A program made the translations under genes and the position numbers. From the human T2T-CHM13v2.0 reference genome, Homo sapiens, in the NCBI RefSeq assembly GCF_009914755.1, contig NC_060928.1: a stretch of 64,000 bases of DNA; one strand, given 5' to 3'. Below, in pieces: positions 9,217 through 40,640 of this stretch (the first letter of the stretch is position 1; each line of letters opens with the position of its first letter). Under the pieces are notes generated by a model, which was not told the origin of the DNA, made no database searches, and was given only the letters and a program-made list of their open reading frames with translations.

Positions 9217-9960
9217 GGCCAGGCATGGAGTGGCTCACGCCTGTAATCCCAACGCTTTGGGGTCTGGAGGATTGCTTGAGGCCAAGAGTTTGAGACCAGC
9301 CTGGCCAACATGGTGAGCCCCTACCTCTATTTAAATTTTCTTAAATTAAAAAATAGACCAGACACAGTGGCTCACACCTGTAATCCCAGCACTTTGGGAG
9401 GCCGAGGGGGGTGGATTACGAGGTCAGGAGTTTGAGACCAGCCTGGCAACATGGTAAAACCCCATCTCTACTAAAAGTACAAACAATTAGCTGGGCATGG
9501 TGGTGGGCGCCTGTGGTCCCAGCTACTTGGGAGGCTGAGGCAAGCAGAATCGCTTGAACCCGGGAGGCGGAGGTTGCAGTGAGCCGAGATCGCGCCATTG
9601 CACTCCAGCCTGGATGACAAGAGCAAAACTCCGTCTCAAAATAATAATAATAATAATAAGGCCGGACGTGGTGGCTCACACCTGCAATCCCTGCACTTTG
9701 GGAGGCCAAGACGGGTGGATCCCTGAGGTCAGGAGTTCAAGACCAGCCGGACCAACATGGAAAAACCCCATCACTACTAAAAATACAAAAATCAGCCGGG
9801 TGTGGTGGCACACGCCTGTGGTCCCAGCTACTCAGAAGGCTGAGGCAGAAGAATCGCTTGAACCTGGGAGGCAGAGGTTGCAGAGCCAAGATCGCGCCAC
9901 TGCAGTCTATCCTGGGTGACAAAGTGAGACTGTCTCAAAATATAAGAATAATAATTAATA
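9217..9960 (+). mobile_element. Tandem Alu cluster: left monomer plus two full AluS
   Basis: Monomer about 9217-9345, Alu about 9356-9659 with (AAT)n tail, Alu about 9660-9960. Confidence 0.9.
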
Positions 9961-10087
9961 AATACATAAAAACAAAAGGAAATGCAAGCAACACATTCTC
10001 AAGGTGGCCACAGGAGGGACAGTAGCAGAAGCCCCAGGCCCCCGGGTGGGAATAGCCCTCGTGGGTGCCTGAAGTGCCCGATGGCAG

Positions 10088-10183
10088 AGATGACAGCCCT
10101 TGGATGCTAGACCTCAGACCTTTGCTGCTGGGTGGTGACCCAGCAGCAAAGGTCTGAGGTCTAGCATCCAAGGGCTGTCATCT
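10088..10183. repeat. Perfect 46-bp inverted repeat with 4-nt spacer
   Basis: 10088-10133 is the exact reverse complement of 10138-10183; loop GGTG; checked base by base. Confidence 0.97.
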
Positions 10184-10246
10184 TAATGACAGCACCGTTT
10201 TCAGTGGAAACCCTTGCATTGCCTATGGGTTTTATTTCTCCTTCTC

Positions 10247-10332
10247 CTTACACTTCTGGGGATTCTAAGTCAATGGCACTGCAGTTTGAAGATGTGGCAG
10301 TGCCATTGACTTAGAGTCACCAGAAGTGTAAG
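10247..10332. repeat. 36-bp inverted repeat (34/36 matched) with 14-nt spacer
   Basis: cttacacttctggggattctaagtcaatggcactgc / gcagtgccattgacttagagtcaccagaagtgtaag. Confidence 0.95.
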
Positions 10333-11053
10333 AACGGTGGCCCCCCCTGAAAGTGTGGCTGATGCATTCCATTTGCCAGGAAAGCCAGACCTTTCCATCC
10401 CTTCCCTCTTTCTTTCCTCTCCTGGTATAAGATCCAGGAATCAGTCCTGAGACTCAGGGTGAACAGAGAGAGAAGGACATAAGCACCTCCCAGGCCTCCC
10501 AGTACCCGCTGTTAGTGTGGGGGCTTCTCTGGCTCCTGGTCAGGCCCCCTGCCCCCACCGGGTGTGCAAAGGAGCAGGGCCTTTTTGCCCACAGATCAGA
10601 CAGGCTGCCCTTTCCCAGGGCTGCGGCCAACCTGCCAGCACCAGGATTCTTCCAGAACAGTTTCCTGAGAGCAGGGCGGTGATTTCAGCAGCAATATACT
10701 CACCAATTATTCATCTCACTGAATTTCATTAGTTTAAAAAATTATGTTTCTCTTTATTATAAAGGCAGGCAATTGACTACTGCCTGAAGAATAAACTCAG
10801 TGACGCTAGAGAGAGCTCGGCAGTATGTGAATAAAAGGTCATTAACAAGCCTAGTTCTTGCCATAAAGACAGGTGAGAGGAAAATAAACTCTCAAGGATG
10901 AGTAAATCACATCTCCTCAGCCATCTTTATCAAATACATGGCAAGATTGCCACTGTATGTGAACAGAACACAAGTAACCGTTTAATGGCTGCTTCCATTC
11001 GGGAGGCTTAGATGATCCAAGTTCCCACATCTTTGTCAACTGGTGCAGTTTTT

Positions 11054-11384
11054 GTTGTTGTTGTTGTTTTGTTTTTGTTTTGTTTTTTTTGAGACAGAGT
11101 TTTGCTCCTATTGCCCAGGTTAGGGTGCAGTGGTGCAATCTCGGCTCGCTGCAACCTCCGCCTTCTGCCTTCCGGTTTCAAGCGATTCTCCTGCCTCAGC
11201 CTCCCAAGTCACTGGAATTACAGGCGTCTGCCACAATGCCCAGCTAATTATTTTTTTGTATTTTTAGTAGAGACAGGGTTTCACCATATTGGTCAGGCTG
11301 GTCTCGAACTGCTGACCTCGTGATCCACCCGCCTCGGCTTCCCAACGTGCTGGCATTACAGGCCTGAGCCACCGAGCCCGGCCC
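11054..11384 (-). mobile_element. AluS-type with 17-bp TSD
   Basis: TSD caactggtgcagttttt at 11037-11053 and 11385-11401. Confidence 0.93.
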
Positions 11385-15218: not shown

Positions 15219-15470
15219 ATTAATTAATTGTTAATTAATATCAAATATTAACAGTAATTTGTTAATAGCAATTTTGATATTAATACATTAATTTTATTTT
15301 TAAAATAAATAATGTTAAGTAAATACCTACTTAATAATAAAATTAATTTATTAATATTAATACTTAAATTTATGTTAAAATAAATTTTAAAGTATTTAAT
15401 AAATTATTTTATTGATATTAAAATTAATATTTAATGTTAAATATTATTATTTGATTATTAATAAAATAAA
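15219..15470. repeat. Extremely AT-rich low-complexity tract with short inverted repeats
   Basis: Almost only A/T; attaattaa-ttg-ttaattaat and tattaaca...tgttaata. Confidence 0.9.
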
Positions 15471-30359: not shown

Positions 30360-30800
30360 AGAAGTGAGTGGATAAACCAATTGTGGTATGTGCATATAAA
30401 GAAACACTGCTTAGAAATAAAGAGAATGAACAACATTTTGGTTTCTTTCATTCCACTTAATCAAAATGAAATCATTTTCATTCCACTTAATCATTTTGGT
30501 TGATGCAACAACATGGATCAACCTCAAAATGATTAAGTGGAATGAAAGAAACCAAACAAAAAGTATAATCTGTATGATTCCCTTTACATAAAATTTTAGG
30601 CAATGCAAACCAATTGATAGTGACAGAAAACGGGTCAGTGGATGCTTGGGGATGGAGCTGGGGGATGCAGGAAGGACTGGAAGGGAGGGATTACAAAGGG
30701 GTCCAAGGAAGTTTTTGGGGTGATAAGTATATTCCTATCTTCATTGTGGTGATGGTTTCACAGGTGTTCACTAGTGTCAAAATGCATCCAAATTTACACT
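30360..30800 (+). mobile_element. Old L1M 3' fragment
   Basis: gtggataaaccaattgtggtat...atgcaacaacatggat...ctgtatgattcc...gtggtgatggtttcacagg. Confidence 0.8.
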
Positions 30801-31888: not shown

Positions 31889-32189
31889 TTCTTTTTTTTA
31901 TTATTTTTTGAGATGGATTCTTGCTTTGTCGCCCAGGCTGGAGTGCAGTGGGGCAATTTCAGCTCACTGCAACCTCCGCCTCCAAGATTCAAGCAATTCT
32001 GATGCCTGTCTCCCAAGTAGCAGGGATTACTGGCGTGCACCATTATGCCTGGCTAATTTTTGTGCTTTTAGTAAAGACGGGGGTTTGCCATGTAGGCCAG
32101 GCTAGTCTTGAACACCTGGCCTCAAGTGATACACCTGTCTCAGCCTCTTAAAATGCTGGGATTACAGGCGTGAGCCACTGTGCCTGGCC
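31889..32189 (-). mobile_element. AluS-type
   Basis: Full Alu. Confidence 0.9.
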
Positions 32190-32223
32190 AGAAAAGGGAA
32201 ACTTTGAGAAGTTAATGAACATT

Positions 32224-32540
32224 GGCCGGGCAGGGTGGCTCACACCTGTAATCCCAGCACGTCGGGAGGCTGAGCAGAAGGATGGCTTGAGCCCAGGAGT
32301 TTGAGACCAGCTTGGGCAACATGGCAAGACCCCATTCCTACCACCCCCCCCCACACACACACACACACAAACTGGGTGCAGTGGTGCATGCCTGTAGTTC
32401 CAGGTACTCAGGAAGTTGAGGCGGGAGGATTGCTTGAGCCCAGGAGGTCAAGGCTGCAGTGAGCTATGATCACACCACTGTACTCCAGCCTGTGGGACAG
32501 GGCAAGACCCTGTCTCTTAAAAAATCATAAAAATAAAAAA
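32224..32540 (+). mobile_element. AluJ-type with C-run/(CA)n linker
   Basis: Full Alu; middle A-tract replaced by C8 and (CA)n. Confidence 0.9.
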
Positions 32541-40419: not shown

Positions 40420-40530
40420 GAGGCTGATCATTGGCTCTCATTGTCCCCTGATACTGTAGCCCCGCCCCTTTGGCTTGTGCTGACTAGCTGTTTATATTTT
40501 AGTAAGGGCCACCCTTTAACTCGGCAGCTT
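40420..40530 (+). promoter_or_regulatory. TRIM2: Core/proximal promoter of TRIM2 long-isoform first exon
   Basis: Inverted CCAAT (ATTGG about 40430), GC box (gcccgcccc about 40460), TATA-like tttatatttt 40491-40500, directly upstream of the coding first exon; repeat-free region. Confidence 0.7.
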
Positions 40531-40640
40531 GATGACTATAATGGGCCCAGTTGTCTGCGGGCTGCGGGGAGCTAAGTCCCCAGATTGGAGGAGGCTGGCT
40601 CTGGTCTTCGATGCACAGGAGTGGCCGTTATGGAACGCAG
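40526..40640 (+). other. TRIM2: First exon (5'UTR plus 10 codons); TSS approximate
   Basis: Ends at consensus donor CAG|GTAAGG (40641); start inferred about 30 nt below the TATA-like element. Confidence 0.75.
40611..40640 (+). CDS. TRIM2: TRIM2 long isoform N-terminal coding segment MHRSGRYGTQ (phase-0 intron follows; rest of gene beyond window)
   Basis: Direct translation of ATGCACAGGAGTGGCCGTTATGGAACGCAG; matches my recollection of the TRIM2 isoform N-terminus MHRSGRYGTQQQRAGSKT... preceding MASEG; not database-verified here. Confidence 0.88.

What the first reader, a model, noticed from the sequence alone, without database searches (positions are those of the whole stretch)
10247..10332. 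Second hairpin with canonical pri-miRNA geometry (36-bp stem, 14-nt loop)
Seen: 34/36 complementary arms with one G-A mismatch and one U-G wobble on the + strand RNA, loop AGTTTGAAGATGTG. Its sequence is unrelated to the first hairpin. Established: Microprocessor prefers stems of about 35 bp with apical loops of 10 nt or more, and the loop ends in UGUG (although the known enhancer motif normally sits at the 5' side of the loop). Inference: this is the better miRNA candidate of the two and is slightly older, since it has two substitutions.
Basis: partly seen in the sequence, partly recalled or inferred. Interest (0 to 1): 0.75.

Follow-up and report, generated by a model that had tools for sequence, protein, structure and literature searches.

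The report
Young inverted duplication, unproven microRNA hairpin
This is a real, single-copy 36-base-pair DNA palindrome in a TRIM2 intron that most likely arose when a DNA polymerase briefly copied the wrong strand; it has the shape of a microRNA precursor, but nothing seen here shows that it makes one.

Summary
Arms 10247-10282 and 10297-10332 are 34/36 complementary around a 14-nt loop. The RNA fold is far stronger than shuffles on both strands. Chance cannot produce this.

The hairpin lies 63 nt downstream of a perfect 46-bp-arm palindrome (10088-10183). Both palindromes, and the 731 bp around them, are single copy in the T2T genome. The same search does detect old repeats of 74-85% identity, so a palindromic transposon is not supported.

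No Rfam family reaches its threshold. The gene table supplied with the finding lists no miRNA gene in the window. The hairpin is absent from the two novel-miRNA candidate lists I could read.

Stem length, loop size and open flanks fit Microprocessor. The basal UG, 5'-apical UGU and mismatched GHG motifs are absent, and CNNC is marginal.

Best reading: a young templated inverted duplication (replication template switch or break-repair foldback), carried passively in TRIM2 long-isoform introns. In published counts only 57 of 6,054 such hairpins (0.9%) are miRBase loci.

"Slightly older" than the neighbour is not supported (2/36 versus 0/46 mismatches, p=0.19).

Outgroup genomes and small-RNA reads were not available and would decide both questions.

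The parts
10247..10282 (.). Left arm of hairpin 2 (36 nt)
   Evidence: Inverted repeat I10. Exact and 2-mismatch matches only here and at 10297-10332 in the window.
10283..10296 (.). 14-nt spacer or apical loop, AGTTTGAAGATGTG
   Evidence: UGUG sits at the 3' end of the loop on the + strand RNA, not at the 5' side.
10297..10332 (.). Right arm of hairpin 2 (36 nt), 34/36 complementary to the left arm
   Evidence: Mismatch pairs are 10260/10319 and 10263/10316.
10341..10347 (+). Run of seven C that gives CNNC words 18-23 nt downstream of the putative 3' Drosha cut (marginal position)
   Evidence: Script; sequence.
10184..10246 (.). 63-nt unique spacer between the two palindromes
   Evidence: No similarity to either palindrome except an 8-mer, ATGACAGC, at 10186-10193.
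10088..10183 (.). Neighbouring perfect palindrome (hairpin 1): arms 10088-10133 and 10138-10183, 46/46 complementary, 4-nt loop
   Evidence: Inverted repeat I8. Single copy in the genome. Fold.
9988..11061 (.). About 1.07 kb of unique sequence holding both palindromes, bracketed by oppositely oriented Alu-like repeats (about 9230-9987 and 11062-11383)
   Evidence: Long inverted-repeat pairs I1-I7 at 77-87% complementarity. Metazoa_SRP-like hit at 9800-9938. 9990-10720 is single copy. The name 'Alu' is my reading, not a tool label.

Best explanation
The feature is a young, locus-specific templated inverted duplication. During replication (short-range template switch, within or between strands) or during repair of a break (foldback priming), a nascent 3' end annealed to nearby complementary bases. 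It then copied about 36 nt of adjacent sequence in reverse-complement orientation and returned to the proper template. One step of this kind creates a perfect stem. Two later substitutions, or an imperfect copy, account for the G.A and U.G positions. The perfect 46-bp palindrome 63 nt upstream was made the same way. It arose either in the same multi-switch event or separately at a locally switch-prone site. The product lies inside the TRIM2 gene span on the sense strand. It would therefore be transcribed passively within the intron of TRIM2 isoforms that start upstream of the window, and would fold into a 36-bp hairpin. I judge it to be raw material, not an established gene: it is most likely not processed, or only inefficiently processed, into small RNAs, and has no selected function. 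Shown here: the palindrome, its non-random nature, single-copy status, absence of any family match, and geometry with and without motifs. Inferred: the mutational mechanism, the timing, transcription, and the lack of processing.
For: (1) The reverse-complement copy is near-perfect and directly adjacent to its partner, which chance cannot give. (2) It is single copy. Own-genome DNA searches with 121-nt, 131-nt and 731-nt queries returned only the locus itself and its own reverse complement. The same tool found 40 other matches at 74-92% identity, 39 of them 74-85% matches to one old repeat, for another stretch of the window. So old repeats are within its reach. (3) No target-site duplication flanks either palindrome in register: the longest word shared between a 20-nt flank and an arm is 4-5 nt for hairpin 2. 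(4) The kind is documented. PMC10710096 (abstract and sections 8-9 read) reports that template switching makes perfect hairpins in one event, with 53,666 putative events in genic regions on the human lineage, 6,054 of miRNA size, and 57 (0.9%) annotated in miRBase. Passages of preprint 10.1101/2021.11.26.470150 report copied stretches up to 90 bp in complex sequence, and one locus with two adjacent events of 62 and 32 bp separated by 16 bp. That is a precedent for a paired event. (5) Such palindromes are rare. My scan (arms >=20 nt, <=6% mismatch, spacer <=60) found 0 in 200,000 bases from 20 other chromosomal sites and 5 in the 64-kb window, two of them these. An independent second one within +-250 bp has probability <=0.009, which favours a linked origin. 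(6) The same process is demonstrable 20 kb away. A 62-nt insertion at 30432-30493, built of inverted copies of downstream sequence, is absent from all 6 other copies of that interspersed repeat that I aligned. (7) Against function: no Rfam family, no annotated miRNA (hub table), not in two candidate catalogues, and three of four Microprocessor motifs absent.
Against: No outgroup or population sequence could be examined. The ancestral state, which arm is the copy, and the age are therefore all inferred. Arm divergence of 2/36 allows anything from about 3 to 200 million years under the two mutation rates I assumed (rates recalled). Replication template switching and break-repair foldback (PMC11724301, abstract only: mostly 5-34 bp in yeast) give the same product and cannot be told apart here. 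The hairpin's geometry is what Microprocessor prefers, and a C run gives a CNNC near the expected place, so processing cannot be excluded. The catalogues I could read are small beside those I could not: Londin 2015 is not held and the supplement of PMC6468295 was unreadable. PMC10710096 notes that TSM-derived miRNAs are mostly sense-intronic (81 of 99 intragenic loci), which is this hairpin's setting.
Confidence: 0.72

Rival explanations
1. It is a newborn intronic miRNA (or hairpin-siRNA) precursor. It would be transcribed with TRIM2 long isoforms, cut by Drosha about 11-13 bp above the basal junction and then by Dicer. The products would be roughly a 5p from about 10258-10261 onwards and a 3p ending about 10321-10323. 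The neighbouring hairpin might assist processing, as in clustered miRNAs.
For: 36-bp stem, 14-nt loop and open flanks. Sense orientation inside the TRIM2 span (hub table). CNNC words start 18-23 nt after the putative cut. Published precedent that template-switch hairpins in sense introns become miRNAs. One mismatch and one wobble already break the perfect duplex.
Against: Base rate of 0.9% (57 of 6,054). No basal UG, no UGU at the 5' side of the loop, and no mismatched GHG on either strand. No Rfam family above threshold. Not annotated (hub table). Not among the 2,469 candidates from pooled small-RNA data nor the brain candidates. The exon of the selected TRIM2 transcript in the window lies 30 kb downstream, at 40523-40640. 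If that is its first exon (my recollection, not tested), only transcripts from the distal promoter contain the hairpin.
Confidence: 0.07
2. It is the relic of a short palindromic DNA transposon (MITE-like element), as are the MADE1-derived miR-548 hairpins.
For: Terminal inverted symmetry. The arms read C-TTA...TAA-G, so a TA dinucleotide lies near each end.
Against: Only the locus itself and its own reverse complement match in 3.1 Gb, with a search shown to find 74-85% identical old repeats. There is no flanking direct repeat. The TA symmetry follows automatically from the palindrome. The arms are 94% alike, although any human DNA transposon would be old (recalled).
Confidence: 0.03
3. It is a selected structural element: an RNA hairpin acting on TRIM2 pre-mRNA (editing, splicing or stability), or a DNA cruciform or dimeric protein-binding site.
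For: Very stable fold as RNA and as DNA. It lies in a GC-richer unique island between repeats.
Against: No RefSeq functional element is listed at 10000-10400 (hub table). There is no family match. Near-perfect arms are what a recent mutation leaves, and selection on structure cannot be read from one sequence.
Confidence: 0.04
4. It is an assembly or sequencing artefact, or a variant private to the sequenced genome, and so not a feature of the human reference population.
For: Only one assembly could be examined. Perfect palindromes are prone to deletion and may be polymorphic (recalled).
Against: It is a small, unique, complex-sequence locus in a finished assembly. Three separate palindromic structures occur in the window, each with a clean junction. 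A private variant would still be a templated inverted duplication.
Confidence: 0.04

Closest known systems
Template-switch-mutation (TSM) hairpins of the primate lineage (Monttinen, Frilander and Loytynoja 2023, PMC10710096; Loytynoja 2022 preprint 10.1101/2021.11.26.470150)
   Same: A near-perfect reverse-complement copy lies next to its source. The sequence is single copy and complex, the hairpin is of miRNA size, and it sits on the sense strand inside a gene. Arm length is within the reported range. There is a precedent for two adjacent events at one locus.
   Different: Membership needs an ancestral state without the repeat, which I could not test. Here two long palindromes (46 and 36 bp) of unrelated sequence lie 63 nt apart, which is unusual but not unprecedented.
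Foldback (snap-back) templated inverted insertions at double-strand breaks (PMC11724301, abstract read; Pol theta / SD-MMEJ literature seen only as the search listing)
   Same: The product is a short inverted duplication of flanking sequence with a small spacer, seeded by microhomology.
   Different: The events documented in yeast are mostly 5-34 bp, whereas these are 36 and 46 bp. No deletion scar or junction microhomology can be read without the ancestral sequence.
Canonical animal pri-miRNA, including near-perfect palindromic human loci such as mir-3179 (Rfam RF02021)
   Same: About 35-bp stem, loop of at least 10 nt, single-stranded flanks, intronic sense position.
   Different: No read evidence, no family homology (all Rfam hits below gathering score), and three of four processing motifs absent. 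The duplex is much more perfect than typical pre-miRNAs: MFEI 1.55, against a typical value of about 1 (recalled).
MITE-derived miRNA hairpins (MADE1 / miR-548 type)
   Same: A palindromic hairpin of 80-90 nt that folds on both strands.
   Different: Those belong to families with many genomic copies (recalled), whereas this is single copy in the genome.

Membership tests
Animal miRNA gene (pri-miRNA) | Hairpin with a stem of about 35 bp, an apical loop of at least 10 nt, and single-stranded basal flanks | tested here: met
   36-bp stem and 14-nt loop. Flanks are mostly unpaired in the minimum-energy and centroid folds.
Animal miRNA gene (pri-miRNA) | Discrete 5p and 3p small-RNA reads with 2-nt 3' overhangs; Drosha/DGCR8 and Dicer dependence | not testable with these tools
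   No read data are held. Indirect checks: absent from the 2,469 candidates in PMC4054668 supplement 3 and from the PMC5050850 supplements. Larger catalogues could not be read.
Animal miRNA gene (pri-miRNA) | Processing motifs (basal UG, apical UGU/GUG at the 5' side of the loop, mismatched GHG, downstream CNNC). These enhance processing and are not strictly required. | tested here: not met
   On the + strand the -14/-13 positions read CU, UC or CC, the 5' loop start reads CAG/AGU, and -7..-5 reads CAC, ACU or CUU. CNNC starts at +18 to +23, which is marginal. The - strand has none of the four. Motif positions are recalled from the literature.
Animal miRNA gene (pri-miRNA) | Homology to a described miRNA family | tested here: not met
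   Rfam 15 in E-value mode: the best hits for hairpin 2 are MIR6426 at 42 bits (gathering score 96) and mir-576 at 36.2 (gathering score 99). The remaining listed hits are also to miRNA families at lower scores, on either strand.
Template-switch (TSM) generated inverted repeat | A reverse-complement copy of immediately neighbouring sequence, near-identical, in non-repetitive DNA | tested here: met
   plus single-copy status, with the sensitivity control.
Template-switch (TSM) generated inverted repeat | The ancestral or outgroup sequence lacks the repeat, and the change is explained by one four-point switch | not testable with these tools
   No primate or population genomes are held. It was shown only for the analogous locus at 30432-30493, using 6 paralogous repeat copies as outgroup.
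Template-switch (TSM) generated inverted repeat | Copied length within the observed range | tested here: met
   36 and 46 nt here, against up to 90 bp in complex sequence in the preprint passages.
Palindromic DNA transposon / MITE | Multiple dispersed copies in the genome | tested here: not met
   Only self and self-reverse-complement matches.
Palindromic DNA transposon / MITE | Target-site duplication flanking the terminal inverted repeats | tested here: not met
   The longest word shared between a flank and an arm is 5 and 4 nt for hairpin 2, as expected by chance. The flanks read ...CCTTCTC and AACGGTG....

The most novel reading that the evidence does not exclude
Both palindromes were written in a single multi-switch replication event. 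Together they form a newborn two-hairpin small-RNA cluster in the intron of TRIM2's long isoforms, possibly specific to humans or apes, or even polymorphic. The 36-bp/14-nt hairpin would be a Microprocessor substrate and the 46-bp/4-nt hairpin a Dicer-type substrate or a helper. That would be a miRNA cluster caught at birth, with the mutational event still readable.
Probability: 0.04. Interest if true: 0.55.

Novelty: new member of a known kind. Interest (0 to 1): 0.22.

Why it matters
If the reading is right, this locus is a textbook-clean example of how one replication or repair error writes a complete, miRNA-shaped hairpin into a transcribed intron. It is unusual in having a second, unrelated hairpin 63 nt away and a third, demonstrable event 20 kb away. 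It would be a convenient natural test case for two questions. What separates the roughly 1% of such hairpins that become miRNA genes from the rest? Do paired hairpins arise in one multi-switch event? By itself it changes no current understanding.

Tried and rejected
(1) Known RNA family. An Rfam E-value scan of 9800-10800 gave only sub-threshold hits driven by generic hairpin structure. Hits included plant and insect families, and MIR6426 was hit on both strands. Rejected.

(2) mir-183/mir-263 relationship. Rfam gave mir-263 at 29.4 bits against a gathering score of 51.3 at 10261-10318. From memory, the stretch AATGGCACTG resembles the 5' end of miR-183/263. Here it sits at the apical end of the arm and runs into the loop, so it cannot be a seed-bearing mature product. 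Treated as coincidence.

(3) Transposon. Own-genome searches were negative and there is no target-site duplication.

(4) A nearby source copy other than the partner arm. Self-comparison of 9988-11062 with 7-nt words found none.

(5) Junction clues to which arm is the copy. The apical ACTGCAGT word and the 8-mer ATGACAGC recurring 2 nt past hairpin 1 were examined. The 8-mer is reached by 1.2% of shuffled flanks, which is marginal after four tests. Neither is diagnostic without an outgroup.

(7) Catalogues of candidate miRNAs. Supplements of PMC10710096 held no TRIM2 or chr4 entry. PMC4054668 had no entry by my recalled hg19 coordinate prefix, and its only two 9-mer motif hits are on chr6 and chr10. 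PMC5050850 had none. Londin 2015 is not held and the PMC6468295 supplement was unreadable.

(8) Full-text search for the 36-nt arm: 0 papers. This does not cover supplements or sequences printed in RNA letters. I did not search RNA-letter versions.

(9) A wider sample of neighbouring genome for palindrome density.

Full report
**Observation**

The repeat finder lists arms 10247-10282 and 10297-10332, 36 nt, 94% complementary, 14 nt apart. The loop reads AGTTTGAAGATGTG.

Comparing the arm with its partner against the ruler places the two exceptions. They are 10260(G) opposite 10319(A), and 10263(T) opposite 10316(G). On the + strand RNA these are one G.A mismatch and one U.G wobble. On the - strand RNA both are mismatches.

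Folds of 10220-10360 are far stronger than shuffles:
- + strand: -68.2 kcal/mol, z=-7.95, 0 of 200 shuffles as good.
- - strand: -65.4 kcal/mol, z=-7.64, 0 of 200.

The stem survives in a 421-nt RNA context and when a 301-nt stretch is folded as single-stranded DNA. The expected number of such matches by chance is 8e-12 in the window and 4e-7 in the whole genome. Some mutational process therefore wrote it.

**Surroundings**

A perfect palindrome lies 63 nt upstream: arms 10088-10133 and 10138-10183, 46/46 complementary, 4-nt loop. The two palindromes share no sequence.

Both sit in about 1.07 kb of unique DNA between oppositely oriented Alu-like repeats. The long inverted pairs I1-I7 are, and an SRP-like hit at 9800-9938 is. 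The name "Alu" is my reading, not a tool label.

According to the hub table, the locus lies within the TRIM2 span on the sense strand. It is 30 kb upstream of the only exon of the selected transcript that falls in the window (40523-40640). I could not establish whether that exon is the transcript's first. If it is (my recollection), only transcripts from the distal promoter contain the hairpins.

**Is it a transposon?**

The window's own assembly could be searched. Queries of 121 nt (hairpin 2), 131 nt (hairpin 1) and 731 nt (9990-10720, E up to 10) returned only the locus and its own reverse complement.

There is an internal positive control. The same tool, given 30400-30600, returned 40 other matches at 74-92% identity, 39 of them 74-85% matches to one old interspersed repeat. 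Old repeats are therefore within its reach.

No direct repeat flanks hairpin 2. A curated repeat library was not available.

**Is it a known RNA or an annotated or candidate miRNA?**

- Rfam 15 in E-value mode over 9800-10800 gave many hairpin-shaped but sub-threshold matches. For hairpin 2 the best are MIR6426 at 42 bits (gathering score 96), hit on both strands, and mir-576 at 36.2 (gathering score 99). For hairpin 1 the best is mir-3179 at 62.7 (gathering score 90). The three alignments shown, all for hairpin 1, match mostly through compensated pairs, not sequence identity.
- The hub's RefSeq table lists only TRIM2.
- The table of 2,469 candidates from pooled small-RNA data (PMC4054668, supplement 3) has no entry with my recalled hg19 coordinate prefix. 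Its only two hits to 9-nt motifs of the hairpin are on chr6 and chr10 (table format seen).
- The brain study PMC5050850 has none.
- The supplements of PMC10710096 mention neither TRIM2 nor chr4.
- A full-text search for the 36-nt arm found 0 papers.
- The largest catalogues could not be read. This negative evidence is therefore weak.

**Microprocessor fit**

Stem length (36 bp), loop (14 nt) and open flanks fit the preference quoted in PMC10710096.

I placed the Drosha cut 11-13 bp above the basal junction (motif positions recalled from the literature). On the + strand:
- There is no UG at -14/-13 (it reads CU, UC or CC).
- There is no UGU or GUG at the 5' side of the loop.
- There is no mismatched GHG.
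- CNNC words start at +18 to +23, from a run of seven C at 10341-10347. This is marginal.

The - strand has none of the four motifs. The duplex is far more perfect than usual, with MFEI 1.55. So the shape is right and the sequence aids are mostly missing. Processing is neither shown nor excluded.

**Origin**

A near-identical reverse-complement copy next to its source, in unique DNA, is the product expected of short-range template switching.

- PMC10710096 (abstract and sections 8-9 read) reports that such events create perfect hairpins in one step. It counts 53,666 putative events in genic regions on the human lineage. Of these, 6,054 are of miRNA size and 57 (0.9%) are annotated in miRBase. 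TSM-derived miRNAs are mostly sense-intronic (81 of 99 intragenic loci).
- Passages of preprint 10.1101/2021.11.26.470150 report copied stretches up to 90 bp in complex sequence. They also describe one locus explained by two adjacent switches of 62 and 32 bp, 16 bp apart.
- Break-repair foldback gives the same product (PMC11724301, abstract: mostly 5-34 bp in yeast). I cannot separate the two mechanisms.

**Clustering**

I scanned for palindromes with arms of at least 20 nt, at most 6% mismatch, spacer up to 60, and the apical 8 bp perfect.
- In 200,000 bases from 20 other chromosomal places the scan found 0.
- In the 64-kb window it found 5: the two hairpins, an inverted Alu-like junction at 32154-32259, an AT-rich low-complexity pair at 15277-15357, and a pair at 30476-30547.

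From 0 in 200 kb, the chance of an independent second palindrome within +-250 bp is at most 0.009. A common event or a local hot spot is therefore more likely than coincidence.

**A demonstrable analogue in the same window**

At 30432-30493 the window carries 62 nt that are absent from all 6 other copies of the surrounding interspersed repeat that I fetched and aligned. These were 6 of the 39 matches to the repeat listed. From memory the repeat looks like the 3' part of an L1; no tool named it.

The insertion consists of two overlapping perfect inverted copies (27 and 23 nt) of sequence 30-90 nt downstream. The paralogues serve as outgroup here, and they show a multi-round templated inverted insertion. 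This supports the mechanism by analogy only.

**Age**

Arm divergence is 2/36 for hairpin 2 and 0/46 for hairpin 1, with Fisher p=0.19. "Slightly older" is therefore not supported.

With assumed rates of 0.5-1e-9 per bp per year (recalled), 2/36 allows about 3-200 million years, and 0/46 allows 0-80 million years. Arm homogenisation would make these underestimates.

The two mismatches lie 3 nt apart, which has a 16% chance.

**Verdict**

The palindrome is real, non-random and single copy. It is most likely a templated inverted duplication carried passively in a TRIM2 intron.

It belongs to a known kind of raw material for miRNA birth, and by the published base rate it is probably not a miRNA gene. 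The pairing with a second, unrelated palindrome is the only unusual aspect.

Outgroup alignments and small-RNA read maps, neither available here, would settle origin and processing.

Noticed in passing
window 30432-30556: A 62-nt insertion (30432-30493) is absent from all 6 aligned paralogous copies of the surrounding old interspersed repeat. From memory the repeat looks like an L1 3' region. The insertion is made of two overlapping perfect inverted copies (30437-30463, 27 nt; 30476-30498, 23 nt) of downstream 30525-30556. It is a demonstrable multi-round templated inverted insertion.
   Followed up: partly
window 10176-10195: The outer end of hairpin 1's right arm (GCTGTCAT) is followed after 4 nt by ATGACAGC. 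This forms a second small 8-bp/4-nt-loop palindrome and repeats the start of the left arm (10090-10097). Only 1.2% of shuffled flanks reach an 8-nt shared word. It may be a trace of an extra switch, and remains unexplained.
   Followed up: partly
window 9230-9987 and 11062-11383: Oppositely oriented Alu-like repeats (77-87% complementary over 58-104-nt segments) bracket the 1.07-kb unique segment that holds both hairpins. Whether such a pair promotes fork stalling and local template switching was not tested.
   Followed up: no
window 10271-10282: The apical end of the left arm reads AATGGCACTG. From memory this resembles the 5' end of miR-183/miR-263. Rfam gave mir-263 at 29.4 bits against a gathering score of 51.3. 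The position in the hairpin is wrong for a mature miRNA, so I judged it coincidence.
   Followed up: partly
window 32139-32274: Two Alu-like elements meet head to head: 52-nt arms, 83% complementary, 32 nt apart.
   Followed up: no
whole window versus 20 other 10-kb samples (L006-L025): The window holds three separate young, perfect or near-perfect, non-low-complexity inverted duplications (10088, 10247, 30437/30476). The 200 kb sampled elsewhere in the genome holds none under the same scan. The numbers are too small to call the region a hot spot.
   Followed up: partly
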